This document shows, piece after piece, positions 19,595 through 58,219 of a stretch of 64,000 nt of DNA. The stretch lies in the NCBI GenBank assembly GCA_022979955.1, contig GCA_022979955.1_3642.1; one strand, 5' to 3'. The notes under the pieces are model-generated. The model was not told the DNA's origin. It did no database searches and was given only the letters and a program-made list of their open reading frames with translations. The position numbers and the translations under genes were made by a program. How positions within the stretch are numbered: position 1 is the stretch's first letter; each line of letters begins with the position of its first letter. Origin of the DNA: a phage.

Positions 19595-19990
19595 TTACTG
19601 AAACAGTGCGGATAAATTACCTTCTGGTGGGAACTTATCTGCCAAAAACGGTGTTAGCACAGTAGCCTTCTGAAGATCTGGGGTCCACTCGTTGTTCAGA
19701 ACATCCCAGTAGTACGCAATGTTACTGTGTGGGTGCCGCATTACGAACTTTTTCCCCTCGTAGTCATCTGAAACCTCTACAGAAGAAATAACAACAGAAT
19801 CTTCAAGGGTTTCTTCATAGAAAGATCCGCCTTCAAATTTCCAACGAGATGCAAGAGCCCCTGCCTTGAACGCTGCAGATAACGGACTGTCGGCAAGAAC
19901 ATACATTTCTTGCACTCTGTCGCTGCGATCTTTGCTTCTTACGTTGTATACAGTATCTGAGCTATACTCAACACGGTATAGGCTTACCAT
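19595..19990 (-). CDS. hypothetical protein, paralog of 21800..22198
   Basis: shared segment FV.RHP.S...YW......WTP with 21800..22198. Confidence 0.5.
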   Translation of the reverse strand: MVSLYRVEYSSDTVYNVRSKDRSDRVQEMYVLADSPLSAAFKAGALASRWKFEGGSFYEETLEDSVVISSVEVSDDYEGKKFVMRHPHSNIAYYWDVLNNEWTPDLQKATVLTPFLADKFPPEGNLSALFQ

Positions 19991-20322
19991 TACCGCACCT
20001 CCTCAATAACTTCCACATCTGAACCCACCACAAATGCAAAAGGACAGGTTTCATGAAAGACATCCGGATCGCCGCCAAGCTTGCTAACAATTTCTCCACC
20101 ACTAATAAACACAAGCTCACCGATATTCATCAGATTGCTGAAATAGTATCCATAATGATTAAAGAATGCAGCAGGGTCAGGTAGACTAGTAGCCTCAAGT
20201 TCTACATCGGTTGAGATTACTTTCTTATCATAACCTCTCGCCTTCTGAGATGCAAGATCTGCAGAATCTTCAGGCGACCGGAGATGCACAGGAATTGTTT
20301 CACCAATAAATCGTACTTTCAT
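19990..20322 (-). CDS. hypothetical small acidic protein, paralog-family A member
   Basis: ORF 19990..20349 begins at TTG; trimmed to ATG at 20322; motif LVFISGGEIVSKLGG and C-terminal VEVIEE. Confidence 0.45.
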   Translation of the reverse strand: MKVRFIGETIPVHLRSPEDSADLASQKARGYDKKVISTDVELEATSLPDPAAFFNHYGYYFSNLMNIGELVFISGGEIVSKLGGDPDVFHETCPFAFVVGSDVEVIEEVR

Positions 20323-20326
20323 ATTC

Positions 20327-20590
20327 TTACCCAACAACCATAGCTTCAAAAGGAGTCATGAACGAATAAACGGCATCATCATCTGCTTCAGGAAATGCTC
20401 CCAAAGACTTCATATCTGAGCCCTTGACAAATACAAGGTTTTGATCAAAAGCTTCTTGAGGGTCAATCCGATACATATCTCGTAGGATATCGCTTACCTC
20501 CTCATCAAGAGGTGAGTATGCTGTGCACGTTTTTCCGATCAAGCTTTGAGAATCAGGGTATCCACCTGAAGTTTTAAAATAAACAATCAT
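20327..20590 (-). CDS. hypothetical small acidic protein, paralog-family A member
   Basis: motif LIGKT...LVFVKGSDMKSLGA. Confidence 0.5.
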   Translation of the reverse strand: MIVYFKTSGGYPDSQSLIGKTCTAYSPLDEEVSDILRDMYRIDPQEAFDQNLVFVKGSDMKSLGAFPEADDDAVYSFMTPFEAMVVG

Positions 20591-20684
20591 ATAGTATCAC
20601 CTCTGGCAAGAGATGGGGATTCCTTTCCCACAAATAATTACAAACTTTTCTTTTTATTGAGGGAGTATGCTAATCAAAGCAGGA

Positions 20685-20954
20685 TTACTCTTCTACAATC
20701 TCATACACATCAGGAGTTACAATCAACTCTTCTCCGTTACCTGGTGCAACAAACACCACCAAGCCTTCAGGTGTGTGCTTTTTAGCCATCTCGATGACAT
20801 CTTCTCGCAGAGCTGGCTCCATCAGATCAAAGCCTTCACCCAGTGCATCACGAACTACCTTCATGTAGTCCACTGGTTGTGCTTCAACGATCATGCCTTC
20901 AACCAGTCCGCAGTTTTTGTCTGCCAGCTCAGTTTTGAATAATTTAATTTTCAT
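20685..20954 (-). CDS. hypothetical small acidic protein (MKIK...YEIVEE)
   Basis: ORF track; leader hairpin GGGAAAGGAATCCCC upstream. Confidence 0.5.
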   Translation of the reverse strand: MKIKLFKTELADKNCGLVEGMIVEAQPVDYMKVVRDALGEGFDLMEPALREDVIEMAKKHTPEGLVVFVAPGNGEELIVTPDVYEIVEE

Positions 20955-21091
20955 TTAGAGGTCTCCTCGATTATTTGATATTAATAGCCGTAACCTAACA
21001 CATTAACTACAACTGCGATTGCAAACATAATTTCAAAGCATGCAATCTCTACATTTGGGACTAATTTCTTAATCATACCCATTGTAGCACC

Positions 21092-21409
21092 TCAATCCCA
21101 AAAGTCAATCTTTACTTTACCTTTTCCCTTACCTTTCTTTCCACCGCATTTAGCCAACTGGCGTGCTGCAACATCCACCATACGGTCAGTTGCCTCGTAA
21201 GCATCGCTACCTTTAGCTTTGGCGATAACTTCTTTCCCAGAATTGTCAAAAATAAAAGCCATAACTTCCTGGTGATCATTTTCAACTTTTACACTCACAC
21301 GTGCATAGTTGGCAGAGGGGTGCAAGCGCTCCAGCTTGGACATTTTGTGGGAAATGAAAGACACCATACCTTCAGTGATCTCTACGTTGCCAGTGATTTC
21401 AATCTGCAT
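21092..21409 (-). CDS. hpf: ribosome hibernation promoting factor / RaiA (YfiA)-like protein
   Basis: N-terminus MQIEITGNVEITEG and C-terminal DAYEATDRMVDVAARQLAK track the E. coli HPF pattern MQLNITGNNVEITEA...DMYAAIDGLIDKLARQLTK (recalled); followed by lysine-rich tail. Confidence 0.6.
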   Translation of the reverse strand: MQIEITGNVEITEGMVSFISHKMSKLERLHPSANYARVSVKVENDHQEVMAFIFDNSGKEVIAKAKGSDAYEATDRMVDVAARQLAKCGGKKGKGKGKVKIDFWD

Positions 21410-21456
21410 AACGTGCTCCTTTTAAAGAAGAGGGAACCAAACCCTCTTTGAAAATA

Positions 21457-21485
21457 ATGATACTAAAGATCAAATGTTGTGTCAA
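21457..21485 (-). promoter_or_regulatory. sigma70-like promoter TTGACA-N17-TATCAT (- strand) for hpf-like gene
   Basis: hexamers read directly; leader hairpin AGAGGGTTTGGTTCCCTCT then AAAAGGAG SD. Confidence 0.5.
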
Positions 21486-21491
21486 CAGTTT

Positions 21492-21782
21492 TTACAGCTT
21501 GTCGTCGATAGTTTTTAAAATATCTACTGCAAGATCTGCCATTTTACGAACATACTCTGCAAACTCAACAGGATCCTTGATCAATGAGTTCACAGGGTCA
21601 TACCCTAAAGCGTTTAAAATGGCTACAGCATCCACAACCTTCTCATCATTTGCGAAGATCTCACCGTCAAACTTGTAGGTCCATTTTGAGTCAATCTTGG
21701 CATGGCAGGATTGGTCCATGCTTATTACACCATCTTTTTTAAACGATTCGGTGTTATCAGTGTCCAAAACTAAATCCATCAT
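21492..21782 (-). CDS. hypothetical acidic protein
   Basis: ORF track. Confidence 0.5.
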   Translation of the reverse strand: MMDLVLDTDNTESFKKDGVISMDQSCHAKIDSKWTYKFDGEIFANDEKVVDAVAILNALGYDPVNSLIKDPVEFAEYVRKMADLAVDILKTIDDKL

Positions 21783-21799
21783 GTAAGTACCCCACTATT

Positions 21800-22198
21800 T
21801 CAGCTTATTTTTTCTTCAACAACCCCGTAGCTCGGGGCAGAGTCAAGAGCTTTCTGGTTTAAAAGTGGTGTAGCAGAATCTGCAAACGGTGTCCAAGTTT
21901 TTGTTCTGGCATTCCAGTAATGCTTCACTCTGGAATCCGGATGCACTATAACAAAAACTTTTTCACTTGTCAACACATTAATTTCTTCTACACCCTTGCT
22001 GATAATTTCTCCGTCATAGCCCCCAGTCTGGTATCCTTCGTACCAGGTTCTTGCATAGGCATAGCCAGCCTGCCAGCATGCAGCCTCCTCCGAGGTGGAG
22101 ACTACGTAGAAGTCTTTCTCAAATTCCGGAATACGCCCTTGCTTTACGCTCCAAGCTCCGCGAATTTTCATTGTAACTTTGAACAGTTTATTTTTCAC
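21800..22198 (-). CDS. hypothetical protein, paralog of 19595..19990
   Basis: shared FVIVHPDSRVKHYWNARTKTWTP-like segment. Confidence 0.5.
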   Translation of the reverse strand: MKNKLFKVTMKIRGAWSVKQGRIPEFEKDFYVVSTSEEAACWQAGYAYARTWYEGYQTGGYDGEIISKGVEEINVLTSEKVFVIVHPDSRVKHYWNARTKTWTPFADSATPLLNQKALDSAPSYGVVEEKIS

Positions 22199-22210
22199 AA
22201 CGGTTACCCA

Positions 22211-22465
22211 TCACAGCTCTACAATATCTGCATCTGACCCTGCCCCAAAGGCATAATAGGACTCTTCCCCGAAATAATATTCAGGTGCACCAGCGGTGAT
22301 CAGGTCTGCTCCTAAGATAAACACCACGTTGTGGCCTACATAACTGTGATGTTGCCGCACAGGATCATCCCACGGCAACCCTTCGAAGTATACCGCAGGA
22401 ACGACCTTTCCATTCAGGAAGGATTGTCCCAAGTAGACGTTAGAATCAAGAATTTTAACCTTCAT
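22211..22465 (-). CDS. hypothetical small acidic protein, paralog-family A member
   Basis: MKVKILDS...NGKVV...VVFILGADLITAGA. Confidence 0.5.
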   Translation of the reverse strand: MKVKILDSNVYLGQSFLNGKVVPAVYFEGLPWDDPVRQHHSYVGHNVVFILGADLITAGAPEYYFGEESYYAFGAGSDADIVEL

Positions 22466-22682
22466 GATCGTCCTCCACTACCTCTACATCCTCACCTAGG
22501 GCAAAGTTGTAGGTCCACTGACTGTCAAAGCATTCCTGAGATGCACCAGCGGCAATAAGATCTGCTCCTTTTATTTTTAAAAGGTCATGGTAATCTTCGT
22601 TAGGGACAGCAGTAAACACTTTTCCTACTAAAGGATCCTGACCAATATAGAAGCTTGAATCTAAAACTTTAACTTTCATCAA
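22455..22682 (-). CDS. hypothetical small acidic protein, paralog-family A member
   Basis: MKVKVLDS...VGKVF...LLKIKGADLIAAGA...VEVVED. Confidence 0.5.
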   Translation of the reverse strand: MMKVKVLDSSFYIGQDPLVGKVFTAVPNEDYHDLLKIKGADLIAAGASQECFDSQWTYNFALGEDVEVVEDDHEG

Positions 22683-22963
22683 CGGTCTCCATCAGGTGGT
22701 TGTGGGACGTAAACACTGTTACGAATATCGTCCGCAGTATAGTAATAAGTGTCTCCAACCCTATCTCTGGCTGCAATGTACTCTGCTATACCAATAAGTG
22801 CCATTGATTTGGTGGCGTATCTTCCCCATTCGTTAGCTCCCCAGCAAAATCTCTGCCAAAACGGTATGAAACCGAATAGGTACACCTTCTGTTTCACTAT
22901 CCAATAAGTTCCTTTACAGATCACTTTAAACTCTGCAGCACTGTTACTGACACCATTGTTCAT
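22679..22963 (-). CDS. hypothetical protein
   Basis: ORF track; 4-nt overlaps. Confidence 0.5.
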   Translation of the reverse strand: MNNGVSNSAAEFKVICKGTYWIVKQKVYLFGFIPFWQRFCWGANEWGRYATKSMALIGIAEYIAARDRVGDTYYYTADDIRNSVYVPQPPDGDR

Positions 22964-22975
22964 TATCTTCTCCTT

Positions 22976-23296
22976 TTATTTTTCTGGGTTTGGCAGATAT
23001 TGCACATTGGCAGGAGGAACACCGGATAGCTCCCAAACAACCATAGTGCTGTACCCTGGCACACTTCTAACATTTAAAAGAGTAGGAGCACCAACACATT
23101 TAAACTTCCTTTTCCCAAATCCGTTCTCCATCATAACCCAGTATCCGGTATCCTGATCACCTGGAATTTGTGTTCCATCATCGTCCACCCAGCGGACGGT
23201 CCATTTTGATACAGCAACGGCTCGGTATTTAAACTTTTTAAACCACTCAAACAGTTTCATCTTCAGCCTCGCTTGGCAGCTCTTCCATTTTGACAT
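22976..23296 (-). CDS. hypothetical protein (true start possibly at internal ATG near 23260)
   Basis: ORF track. Confidence 0.45.
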   Translation of the reverse strand: MSKWKSCQARLKMKLFEWFKKFKYRAVAVSKWTVRWVDDDGTQIPGDQDTGYWVMMENGFGKRKFKCVGAPTLLNVRSVPGYSTMVVWELSGVPPANVQYLPNPEK

Positions 23297-30587: not shown

Positions 30588-30649
30588 TTGGCACCTCCTC
30601 TGCTTTCATTACGGCAATTATAACCAACTCAACAAAGCTTTGTCAACAA

Positions 30650-57361: not shown

Positions 57362-57436
57362 GCCCTGTTAGCTTAGTGGATAAAGCAGCGGCCTTCTAAG
57401 CCGTTGACACTGGTTCGAGTCCAGTACGGGGTGCCA
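57362..57436 (+). tRNA. tRNA-Arg (anticodon UCU)
   Basis: hand-folded cloverleaf: acceptor GCCCTGT/ACGGGGT, anticodon loop CTTCTAA, T-loop TTCGAGT, 3' CCA encoded. Confidence 0.7.
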
Positions 57437-57440
57437 AATT

Positions 57441-57527
57441 GGGGAGTTATCCCGTAGAGGTAGCGGTGTAGACTGTAAATCTATTGTCATTGCGACTCGG
57501 GTGGTTCGACTCCACCACTCCCCACCA
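57441..57527 (+). tRNA. tRNA-Tyr (anticodon GUA), type II long variable arm
   Basis: acceptor GGGGAGT/ACTCCCC, anticodon loop CTGTAAA, T-arm GGTGG-TTCGACT-CCACC, CCA encoded. Confidence 0.7.
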
Positions 57528-57641
57528 AATTTATATTTTTAGATGCGTAAATAATACAGATAATGGCATTGATATTTATCGTCGTTTATACTAGTCACTA
57601 ACTGCTCGAAAATCAGTGTCATTATCAGTATAATTTATAAA

Positions 57642-57732
57642 GGAGGGTAGGGAGCAATGGTGCTCAAGCGGTCTTGAAAACCGTCCCATTGAGGATGACT
57701 CGATGATGGTTCGATTCCATTACTCTCCGCCA
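57642..57732 (+). tRNA. tRNA-Ser (anticodon UGA), type II
   Basis: acceptor GGAGGGT/ACTCTCC, anticodon loop CTTGAAA, long variable arm, T-loop TTCGATT, CCA encoded. Confidence 0.65.
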
Positions 57733-57830
57733 CATTGTTGACCTTGTAATTAAGCGAAAGCCGGAAGCAGAACCGGATTATCAAATGTTACAGTCGTCAT
57801 CGCCGACTAGCAACATGGTCAACATACTGA

Positions 57831-57927
57831 GCTAGGTAAGCCCTTTGGCAAGGGCGAGGATTTTTAATCCTGAAAATAGACGAGGTAGTCGTTGAATACA
57901 TAGGTGGTTCGATTCCACCGCCTAGCA
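57831..57927 (+). tRNA. atypical tRNA-like gene (anticodon loop TTTTTAA, nominal Lys-UUU) with about 30-nt extra arm
   Basis: acceptor GCTAGGT/GCCTAGC, D-arm GCCC-TTTGGCAA-GGGC, T-arm GGTGG-TTCGATT-CCACC; 4-bp anticodon stem; no encoded CCA. Confidence 0.35.
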
Positions 57928-57933
57928 CCTTTT

Positions 57934-58009
57934 GCTGATGTAGCACAATTGGCAGTGCAATTGATTTGTAATCAATAGGTTGCAGGTTCAAGTCCTGCCA
58001 TCAGCACCA
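57934..58009 (+). tRNA. tRNA-Thr (anticodon UGU)
   Basis: acceptor GCTGATG/CATCAGC, anticodon stem ATTGA/TCAAT with loop TTTGTAA, T-arm GCAGG-TTCAAGT-CCTGC, CCA encoded. Confidence 0.75.
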
Positions 58010-58010
58010 T

Positions 58011-58085
58011 GGCCCTGTAGCTGGAAGGTTCAAGCAAGCGACTCATAATCGCCAGATGGTGGTTCAATTCCACCCAGGGCCACCA
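58011..58085 (+). tRNA. tRNA with CAU anticodon (Met, or Ile if lysidine-modified)
   Basis: acceptor GGCCCTG/CAGGGCC, anticodon loop CTCATAA, T-arm GGTGG-TTCAATT-CCACC, CCA encoded. Confidence 0.65.
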
Positions 58086-58096
58086 AATTATAAATA

Positions 58097-58163
58097 CTCC
58101 GCGTAGCTCAGCTTGGTAGAGCGCCTGATTTGGGATCAGGAGGTCGAGTGTTCGAATCACTCC
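58097..58163 (+). tRNA. tRNA-Pro (anticodon UGG)
   Basis: acceptor CTCCGCG/CGTGGAG, anticodon stem CCTGA/TCAGG with loop TTTGGGA, T-loop TTCGAAT, CCA encoded. Confidence 0.7.
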
Positions 58164-58219
58164 GTGGAGACCACCTTTAGTTATACTTTAAACATATACA
58201 AACGAAAGGAACCTTTAAA

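What the first reader, a model, noticed from the sequence alone, without database searches (positions are those of the whole stretch)
21092..21485. Phage-encoded ribosome hibernation promoting factor (HPF/RaiA) homolog with its own strong promoter
The 105-aa protein starts MQIEITGNVEITEG and contains DAYEATDRMVDVAARQLAK, closely following the bacterial HPF/YfiA pattern, and ends in a lysine-rich tail. It has a near-consensus TTGACA-N17-TATCAT promoter, a leader hairpin and a strong SD. A phage copy could shut down or protect host ribosomes during takeover.
Basis: partly seen in the sequence, partly recalled or inferred. Interest (0 to 1): 0.7.

Follow-up and report, generated by a model that had tools for sequence, protein, structure and literature searches.

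The report
Known rV5-phage ribosome hibernation factor homolog
This is the already described copy of a bacterial ribosome-parking protein (HPF) carried by rV5-like E. coli phages; the gene is real and well conserved, but what it does during infection is still untested.

Summary
On the minus strand, 21092..21409 encodes a 105-aa protein. Upstream lie TTGACA-17-TATCAT (21485..21457), a 7-bp leader hairpin (21448..21428) and an AAGGAG Shine-Dalgarno site. The protein is a true S30AE/HPF-family member: Pfam 48.3 bits against a cutoff of 23.7, 43% identity to E. coli K-12 HPF against 25% to RaiA, and a confident model that superposes on solved HPFs at 1.1 Å.

It is not new. The window is a Vequintavirus. 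The gene is rV5 ORF144, annotated in 2006 together with promoter P144. Mizuno et al. 2019 analysed it as a phage HPF and expressed it in E. coli. They did not find it on 0.5 M NH4Cl-washed ribosomes and saw no change in 100S.

New here:
- It derives from short HPF.
- It keeps K22, K25, R83, Q84, K87 and K91, but has lost other ribosome or E-site-tRNA contact residues (R33, T53, H55, K80, K89, H95).
- It carries a 15-residue disordered Lys/Gly tail.
- It is under strong purifying selection (dN/dS 0.00-0.04).
- A 64%-identical copy sits at the same position in an uncultured sister lineage.

Most likely it is a salt-labile, RaiA-like occupant of idle ribosomes. This is unproven.

The parts
21457..21485 (-). 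Sigma-70-type promoter: -35 TTGACA (21485..21480), 17-nt spacer, -10 TATCAT (21462..21457). Equals rV5 promoter P144.
   Evidence: Searches give an 11/12 match. It is annotated in rV5. The -35 and its upstream context AAACTGTTGACACA are invariant down to the sister lineage. Near-consensus sites are about 9-fold enriched in the window.
21428..21448 (-). 5'-leader stem-loop AAGAGGG-tttggtt-CCCTCTT. It starts a few nt after the expected transcription start and does not cover the SD.
   Evidence: Folding gives -9.9 kcal/mol. It is retained in rV5-like genomes with loop or stem variants (-7.3 to -11.7) and is absent in L005. The leader as a whole is not exceptional (z = -0.6).
21416..21421 (-). Shine-Dalgarno AAGGAG, 6 nt upstream of the ATG
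   Evidence: Read directly from the sequence.
21140..21409 (-). Codons 1-90: S30AE/HPF core domain (beta1 2-7, alpha1 13-29, beta2 33-42, beta3 47-55, beta4 60-67, alpha2 70-90)
   Evidence: Pfam PF02482 matches residues 3-88. The AF2 model has block-mean pLDDT of 81-96 over residues 1-90. Foldseek against 4hei, 2rql and 6h4n gives rmsd 1.1-3.0 Å. dN/dS is 0.00-0.04.
21095..21139 (-). Codons 91-105: Lys/Gly-rich tail KKGKGKGKVKIDFWD, predicted disordered, ending in an aromatic plus acidic residues
   Evidence: pLDDT is below 50 for residues 91-105. Isolates vary in length and sequence here, and the sister lineage has KSKGIDKRTAKWDY.
21092..21094 (-). Stop codon TGA

Best explanation
The gene is the Vequintavirus ortholog of rV5 gp144. 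It is a short-HPF-derived S30AE protein made from a host-sigma70 promoter in the block of small, presumably early, genes.

Most likely it still docks, weakly and in a salt-labile way, into the decoding channel of vacant 30S/70S ribosomes, between h30 and h44 across the A and P sites. In E. coli HPF the C-terminus follows the mRNA path to the E-site codon. The phage protein is 10 residues longer, so its basic tail should run further, toward the mRNA exit and anti-SD region where RMF binds. That would make it behave more like RaiA than like HPF. Idle ribosomes would be capped as 70S monomers and shielded from RNases, and RMF-driven 100S dormancy would not be promoted. The ribosome pool would then stay intact and quickly reusable for phage translation.

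Shown here: family membership, fold, which contact residues are kept or lost, the disordered tail, purifying selection, the promoter, and conservation.
Inferred: ribosome binding during infection, the path of the tail, early timing, and the benefit to the phage.
For: Family and fold:
- Pfam S30AE 48.3 bits against GA 23.7.
- TIGR00741 45.9 against 40.9.
- 43% identity to E. coli K-12 HPF, E = 5e-18.
- AF2 with an alignment gives mean pLDDT 84.7.
- Top solved-structure matches are all ribosome hibernation factors, with rmsd 1.1 Å to 4hei and 6h4n.

Contact residues:
- Those named in published HPF-ribosome structures are partly retained: K22 (=K23), K25 (=K26), E60, R83, Q84, K87, K91.
- R28 restores the basic residue found in S. 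aureus HPF (R30), where Enterobacterales HPF has Q29.

Tail:
- The RaiA tail heads toward the RMF site.
- The phage tail is 18 residues after K87, against 8 in HPF and 26 in RaiA.

Selection and retention:
- dN/dS is 0.00-0.04 over codons 1-88.
- The gene is present in 118 Vequintavirus records at 95-100% aa identity.
- It sits at the same position in a sister lineage at 64% identity.

Biological rationale:
- HPF, RaiA and RMF protect 16S rRNA from YbeY and RNase R (PMC7913689).
- Continuous arabinose induction did not stop cultures reaching OD 1 and left ribosome profiles normal. This argues against a potent global inhibitor.
Against: The only experiment did not find the protein in 70S or 100S fractions and saw no effect on 100S.

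Several residues that contact the ribosome or E-site tRNA in bacterial HPF are replaced in both phage lineages:
- R33 to S/T
- T53 to F/R
- H55 to F
- K80 to V/T
- K89 to G/S
- no C-terminal His95

The NCBIfam HPF equivalog score is 55.8, against a cutoff of 125.

Natural variants with a frameshifted tail (APCEc02) or a 6-residue N-terminal deletion (inoa) are viable isolates. The tail, or even the gene, is therefore not essential in the laboratory.

No expression-timing data for this gene were found.
Confidence: 0.4

Rival explanations
1. The fold has been repurposed. The protein no longer acts on the ribosome. [quoted passage not shown]
For: It was not detected on purified ribosomes although it was present in extract. 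It has lost K80, K89, H55, T53, R33 and H95, all conserved or contacting in Enterobacterales HPF. It is an isolated clade: only 22 proteins in 1.84 billion reach E <= 1e-3, and the nearest bacterial ones are 31-45% identical. Weaker fold matches include dsRNA-binding domains.
Against: Most of the alpha1/alpha2 basic face is retained (K22, K25, R28, R83, Q84, K87, K91). The 35 best structural matches are all ribosome-bound hibernation factors. The negative experiment used a 0.5 M NH4Cl wash and growing cells, and under those conditions loosely bound factors would be lost.
Confidence: 0.2
2. It is a host shut-off factor. Made early and in excess, it blocks the A and P sites of free 30S/70S and suppresses initiation on host mRNAs, while phage mRNAs with strong SDs out-compete.
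For: It has a near-consensus promoter and a strong SD. HPF-type factors occlude the mRNA and the A- and P-site tRNA positions. S. aureus HPF suppresses initiation on specific mRNAs.
Against: E. coli induced continuously with arabinose grew to OD 1, and sedimentation profiles were unchanged. Nothing in the protein suggests discrimination between host and phage mRNAs. The phage needs the same ribosomes.
Confidence: 0.12
3. It is an anti-dormancy or anti-defence factor. It counters host responses that inactivate ribosomes during infection, such as RMF-driven 100S dormancy or abortive-infection RNases that cut 16S rRNA in the decoding centre or at the 3' end. It would do so by occupying the site and excluding RMF.
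For: The tail is long enough to reach toward the RMF site, by analogy with RaiA. RMF is reported to rise in DRT2-mediated defence (review PMC13434031). Hibernation factors occlude RNase target sites. Mizuno et al. proposed competition with cellular HPF to prevent dimers.
Against: There is no direct evidence. The published work saw no effect on the 100S peak, though 100S was minor in those cells. No RMF-like or other hibernation gene accompanies it in the window. Vequintaviruses are described as highly sensitive to RM systems, which does not suggest a strong anti-defence repertoire.
Confidence: 0.15
4. It is a neutral passenger, a recently captured host gene with no role for the phage.
For: Two isolates carry disrupted versions.
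Against: dN/dS is 0.00-0.04 with dS up to 0.75. It is retained in 118 genomes and in a sister lineage at 64% identity with the same synteny and promoter. It is only 43% identical to host HPF, so the capture is not recent.
Confidence: 0.03

Closest known systems
rV5 gp144 / ORF144 (ABI79209), the 'phage HPF' of Mizuno et al. 2019, Nat Commun 10:752
   Same: It is the same gene. The sequence is 98% identical (P0001), with the same position, promoter P144 and neighbours. The window's protein is 100% identical to that of phage FV3.
   Different: Only the last two residues differ, WD here and GE in rV5.
E. coli short HPF (YhbH, 95 aa; PDB 2RQL, 6H4N)
   Same: It is the best sequence and structure match: 43% identity and rmsd 1.1 Å. 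[quoted passage not shown]
   Different: The phage protein has lost R17, R33, T53, H55, H62, K80, K89 and the terminal His95. It has gained R28, R37, K59, K64 and K66. It has 10 extra C-terminal residues rich in Lys and Gly. The gene is not in an rpoN operon. It scores below the NCBIfam HPF equivalog cutoff.
E. coli RaiA / YfiA / protein Y (113 aa)
   Same: The fold is the same. Both have an extended flexible C-terminal tail ending in an aromatic plus acidic residues (RaiA ...DANFVEEVEEE; phage ...KIDFWD). Many GenBank records call the phage gene RaiA.
   Different: Identity is only 25%. The RaiA equivalog score is 17.6 against a cutoff of 158. The phage tail is basic rather than acidic and is 8 residues shorter.
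HPF-fold proteins of jumbo phages (Cronobacter GAP32, Escherichia PBECO4, Xanthomonas XaC1)
   Same: They are phage-encoded S30AE-fold proteins. XaC1's 129-aa protein also has a long tail, ending YDDDEDE.
   Different: They share 17-34% identity and come from separate acquisitions. They are not detectable from the rV5 protein by tblastn.
Long HPF of Firmicutes, Thermus and others
   Same: The N-terminal domain is homologous, and R28 matches S. aureus R30.
   Different: The phage protein has no C-terminal dimerisation domain. It is 105 aa with a disordered tail.

Membership tests
Pfam PF02482 Ribosomal_S30AE (HPF/RaiA/pY superfamily) | Score above the curated gathering threshold over the whole domain | tested here: met
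   48.3 bits against 23.7, residues 3-88 on profile positions 1-83 of 88. TIGR00741 'HPF/YfiA family' scores 45.9 against 40.9.
Pfam PF02482 Ribosomal_S30AE (HPF/RaiA/pY superfamily) | [quoted passage not shown] | tested here: met
   The AF2 model has mean pLDDT 84.7 and elements E2-7 H13-29 E33-42 E47-55 E60-67 H70-90. Foldseek gives 4hei E = 1.5e-9 at rmsd 1.1 and 6h4n_x at rmsd 1.1. The top 35 hits are all hibernation factors.
Short HPF (YhbH) of gammaproteobacteria | Closer to HPF than to RaiA; equivalog-level similarity | tested here: inconclusive
   It is closer to HPF: 43% against 25% identity, and PRK10470 scores 55.8 bits against 17.6 for PRK10324. Even so, 55.8 is far below the HPF equivalog cutoff of 125.
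Short HPF (YhbH) of gammaproteobacteria | Conserved basic residues of alpha1 and alpha2 that contact 16S rRNA (K23, K26, K80, R83, K87, K89, K91), plus H55/E60 (uS9) and T53/H62 (m2G966) | tested here: inconclusive
   Kept: K22, K25, E60, R83, K87, K91. Lost in both phage lineages: K80 (V/T), K89 (G/S), H55 (F), T53 (F/R). H62 is replaced by I or M.
Short HPF (YhbH) of gammaproteobacteria | C-terminal residues that contact E-site tRNA and stack on G693 (R33, K93, H95) | tested here: not met
   R33 is S32, there is no His at the end, and a different and longer Lys/Gly tail takes its place.
Short HPF (YhbH) of gammaproteobacteria | Binds 70S and, with RMF, promotes 100S dimers | not testable with these tools
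   Published result: the protein was absent from salt-washed 70S and 100S, with no change in 100S (PMC6375957). The conditions were not decisive.
RaiA / YfiA | Equivalog-level similarity and a long C-terminal tail that blocks RMF binding | tested here: not met
   PRK10324 scores 17.6 bits against a cutoff of 158, with 25% identity. A tail exists, but it is basic, shorter and not homologous. Whether it blocks RMF is untested.
Long HPF | C-terminal dimerisation domain after a linker | tested here: not met
   The protein is 105 aa with no second Pfam domain. Residues 91-105 are disordered.

The most novel reading that the evidence does not exclude
The phage protein is not a hibernation factor but an anti-hibernation or anti-defence device. 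It would be an HPF core that parks in the decoding channel only loosely, with a basic tail that occupies the mRNA-exit and anti-SD pocket. RMF could then not bind, so the host could not drive ribosomes into 100S dormancy, for example after defence-triggered RMF induction. Abortive-infection RNases could not cut 16S rRNA. The ribosomes would remain instantly reusable for phage mRNAs.
Probability: 0.15. Interest if true: 0.65.

Novelty: already known. Interest (0 to 1): 0.22.

Why it matters
Phage-encoded ribosome-associated factors are one of the few direct routes by which viruses might reprogram or preserve the host translation machinery. Vequintaviruses are common, broad-host-range coliphages used in biocontrol and in the BASEL collection, so genetic tools and hosts already exist.

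The gene's existence is old news. Its function is still an open and testable question. It is under strong purifying selection, yet the only experiment did not find it on ribosomes.

The residue map given here makes specific predictions for a follow-up experiment. It lists which HPF contacts are kept, which are lost, and where the extra basic tail should go. It does not change the classification.

Tried and rejected
- Single-sequence AF2 gave a poor model (pLDDT 61). It was replaced by the alignment-based model.
- The word-indexed homolog search with the protein alone returned only 5 close relatives. The IMG/VR scan returned only 2 loci. Comparative power for the leader therefore rests on six sequences.
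- I tested whether 'promoter followed by a 5' hairpin' is a recurrent design in this genome. Six of 19 strong promoters have hairpins of -9.9 kcal/mol or stronger, but overall the difference from random 40-nt windows is not significant (Mann-Whitney p = 0.21). I do not claim it.
- An Rfam scan of 20500..22000 found nothing credible; the best hit had E = 0.93.
The best hit was E = 2.9, so none was found.
- I checked whether the neighbour ORF146 (20685..20954), labelled 'sigma 54 modulation factor' in several records, is a second HPF. It has no Pfam hit and falls in a PHROG of unknown function. The label is rejected as an annotation error.
- The neighbours gave no functional clue. All fall in PHROGs of unknown function.
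- Literature searches for functional or transcriptomic work on the Vequintavirus hpf after 2019-2020 found none.

Full report
**1. What is there**

The finding's coordinates cover a minus-strand gene and its upstream signals.

- Promoter-like site, read on the coding strand: TTGACA (21485..21480), a 17-nt spacer, TATCAT (21462..21457).
- Stem-loop: AAGAGGG-tttggtt-CCCTCTT (21448..21428).
- SD: AAGGAG (21421..21416), followed 6 nt later by the ATG.

The promoter scan scores the promoter-like site 11/12. Sites this good are strongly over-represented in the window, with 19 against 2.0 +/- 1.3 in shuffles. They are therefore a genuine feature of this genome and not chance.

The hairpin is real (-9.9 kcal/mol), but the leader as a whole folds no better than shuffled sequence (z = -0.6). 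Rfam has nothing here.

**2. Which genome it is**

The 3-kb surroundings match 121 phage records at 90-99% identity. Essentially all are Vequintavirus (rV5-like coliphages).

In the rV5 reference record the gene is ORF144, 'sigma 54 modulation factor', and the promoter is annotated as 'Sigma70-type promoter P144'. Other records call it RaiA, hpf, ribosome hibernation factor, or PSrp-1. A few call it 'ATP-dependent protease La', which is an error.

The window's protein is 100% identical to that of phage FV3. It differs from rV5's only in the last two residues.

**3. Family membership**

| Test | Result |
|---|---|
| Pfam PF02482 | 48.3 bits, cutoff 23.7 |
| TIGR00741 (HPF/YfiA family) | 45.9 bits, cutoff 40.9 |
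| HPF equivalog PRK10470 | 55.8 bits, cutoff 125 |
| RaiA equivalog PRK10324 | 17.6 bits, cutoff 158 |
| Identity to E. coli K-12 HPF | 43% over 88 residues, E = 5e-18 |
| Identity to E. coli K-12 RaiA | 25%, E = 3e-5 |

The best solved-structure sequence matches are E. coli and V. cholerae HPF.

A single-sequence AF2 model was poor. With a 50-sequence alignment the model is confident: mean pLDDT 84.7, with block means of 81-96 over residues 1-90. [quoted passage not shown] Foldseek places it on V. cholerae HPF (4hei) and ribosome-bound E. coli HPF (6h4n) at 1.1 Å. The 35 best hits are all hibernation factors.

It is therefore a bona fide S30AE protein of short-HPF ancestry.

**4. It is already known**

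Mizuno et al. 2019 (PMC6375957) listed rV5 ABI79209 and five close relatives as phage-encoded HPF. They expressed the rV5 gene from pBAD24 in E. coli NM522. They then purified ribosomes through a 0.5 M NH4Cl sucrose cushion and a gradient.

Their mass spectrometry found no HPF peptides in the 70S or 100S fractions. The protein was present in crude extract, and the 100S peak was unchanged. The authors named three possible reasons: wrong growth phase, loss in the salt wash, or genuine loss of binding. They speculated that viral HPF might compete with cellular HPF to prevent dimers.

Mathieu et al. 2020 (PMC6969025) again listed hpf in five rV5-like isolates. I found no later functional or transcriptomic work on it.

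**5. What I can add: anatomy relative to bacterial HPF**

I used the contact residues reported for E. coli and Enterobacter HPF on the ribosome (bioRxiv 382572; bioRxiv 2025.10.07.680626). I also used the 'conserved basic residues' of Basu and Yap (PMC4889938). I mapped these through alignments with 46 Enterobacterales HPFs and the K-12 proteins.

Residues kept: K22 (=K23), K25 (=K26), E60, R83, Q84, K87, K91.

Residues replaced, in both the rV5-like proteins and the 64%-identical sister protein:

| E. coli HPF residue | Phage residue | Reported role |
|---|---|---|
| R17 | V | conserved in Enterobacterales HPF |
| R33 | S/T | E-site tRNA contact |
| T53 | F/R | m2G966 motif |
| H55 | F | uS9 C-terminus |
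| K80 | V/T | one of four basic residues shared by HPF and RaiA |
| K89 | G/S | 16S rRNA contact |
| H95 | absent | stacks on G693 |

Residues gained: R28, R37, K59, K64 and K66. R28 is basic in S. aureus HPF (R30), where Enterobacterales HPF has Q29.

After K87 the phage protein has 18 residues, against 8 in HPF and 26 in RaiA. The HPF C-terminus follows the mRNA path to the E-site codon. The RaiA tail continues toward the RMF pocket. A longer basic tail should therefore reach toward the mRNA exit and anti-SD region. This last step is inference, not a computed docking.

**6. Evolution**

- The core is under strong purifying selection. dN/dS is 0.00-0.04, with dS between 0.3 and 0.75 among rV5-like sequences.
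- The gene is present in 118 Vequintavirus records at 95-100% aa identity.
- An uncultured sister lineage (contigs of 124-137 kb) has 73-76% nt identity over a third of the region. It carries a 64%-identical, 103-aa copy at the same position, with the same TTGACA -35 and upstream context. It has a different -10 (TGcAATTAT), no leader hairpin and no 33-aa downstream ORF.
- Exhaustive phmmer against 1.84 billion representatives gives only 22 hits at E <= 1e-3. Beyond the phage clade, the hits inspected were short or intermediate-length HPF-family proteins at 27-45% identity, apart from one spurious repeat protein; the closest resemble gammaproteobacterial short HPF. A profile search ranks Enterobacterales HPFs first, at 35-45% identity.

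The capture was therefore from a gammaproteobacterial short HPF, but it was not recent.

The tail is the variable part:
- It ends in FGE or FWD.
- One isolate lacks two residues.
- One isolate has an extra KG.
- APCEc02 has a frameshifted, shorter tail.
- Phage inoa has an in-frame 6-residue deletion in beta1.

The tail, and perhaps the gene, is therefore dispensable for plaque formation.

Other phage S30AE proteins are separate acquisitions: GAP32, PBECO4 and XaC1. Several tiny 'phage' records with HPF hits look like bacterial fragments.

**7. Mechanism**

I commit to the RaiA-like 'cap and protect' reading at about 0.4. Its three steps are:
- transcription by host RNA polymerase from P144;
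- salt-labile binding to vacant ribosomes in the decoding channel;
- a tail directed toward the RMF and anti-SD region, so that idle ribosomes stay as protected 70S and are not pushed into 100S.

This reading is consistent with four things. The basic face is retained. Ribosome profiles stayed normal and 100S was unchanged in expressing cells, and the cultures still reached OD 1. E. coli hibernation factors have a demonstrated role in blocking YbeY and RNase R. Selection is strong.

The rivals, with my estimates:
- a repurposed fold that no longer targets the ribosome (0.2);
- an anti-dormancy or anti-defence role (0.15), which is the most novel reading;
- a host translation shut-off factor (0.12);
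- a neutral passenger (0.03).

None can be separated without experiments. The decisive ones are listed under next steps.

**8. Verdict**

The homology interpretation is supported. The functional interpretation is unproven, and the one inconclusive negative experiment stands against it. The feature is already annotated and published, so novelty is 'already known' and interest is low. A modest open question remains about what the protein actually does.

Noticed in passing
window 20685..20954 (-): The 89-aa gene two positions downstream (rV5 ORF146) is labelled 'sigma 54 modulation factor' in several GenBank and RefSeq records, for example APCEc02, HMD-6, ECP26/32 and inoa. It has no Pfam hit and belongs to phrog_11868, which has no known function. 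The label looks like a propagated annotation error. The hpf gene itself is mislabelled 'ATP-dependent protease La Type I' in the O177 and bov phage records.
   Followed up: yes
window 20981..21082 (-): A 33-aa hydrophobic ORF (MGMIKKLVPNVEIACFEIMFAIAVVVNVLGYGY, phrog_15151) lies directly after hpf. It is annotated in rV5-like genomes as ORF145 and is absent from the sister lineage, where hpf is followed directly by a promoter-like site and the ORF146 homolog.
   Followed up: partly
window 21416..21448 (-) compared with L005 3985..4000: In the alignment, the 5' arm of the rV5-type leader hairpin (AGAGGG) lines up with the Shine-Dalgarno sequence (GAGGG) of the sister lineage. The rV5-type leader looks like a roughly 27-nt insertion. 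The insertion supplied a complementary CCCTCT and a new SD (AAGGAG), turning the old SD into a hairpin arm.
   Followed up: partly
window 19595..19990, 21800..22198, 22211..22465, 22455..22682, 20327..20590 (all -): hpf sits between duplicated modules of small genes. There are two phrog_7379 paralogs (131 and 132 aa, 28% identical). There are two or three phrog_5009 paralogs (84 and 75 aa, 41% identical, plus a weak third). All are of unknown function.
   Followed up: partly
whole window, e.g. 30646 (-), 6162 (+), 53722 (+), 38932 (-): There are 19 near-consensus sigma70 promoter-like sites (>=11/12, one a perfect 12/12 at 30646), against about 2 expected. Several are followed by strong 5' stem-loops, for example GGCGGGAAAACTTCCCGCC at about 6200. 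As a class, though, the hairpins are not significantly enriched (p = 0.21).
   Followed up: partly
window 57362..58173 (+): A cluster of seven tRNA calls: Arg-TCT, Tyr-GTA, Ser-TGA, Thr-TGT, Met-CAT, Pro-TGG, and a 99-nt call with a four-base 'anticodon' atcc at 57831..57929. The last may be a mis-called or degenerate tRNA.
   Followed up: no
window 20000..23000: The closest DNA matches (98.9%) are unannotated records named 'Campylobacter phage' (MG0656xx series, host given as C. jejuni). Over the regions compared they closely match E. coli Vequintavirus genomes, so the host label looks doubtful.
   Followed up: no
L012 395..694 (phage inoa) and L009 401..706 (APCEc02): These are natural variants of the phage HPF. 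One has an in-frame loss of residues GNVEIT between the two EIT repeats, which removes the invariant G7. The other has a frameshift in the Lys/Gly-coding repeat that replaces the tail with RKKGKGERQSKD. Both come from plaque-forming isolates.
   Followed up: partly
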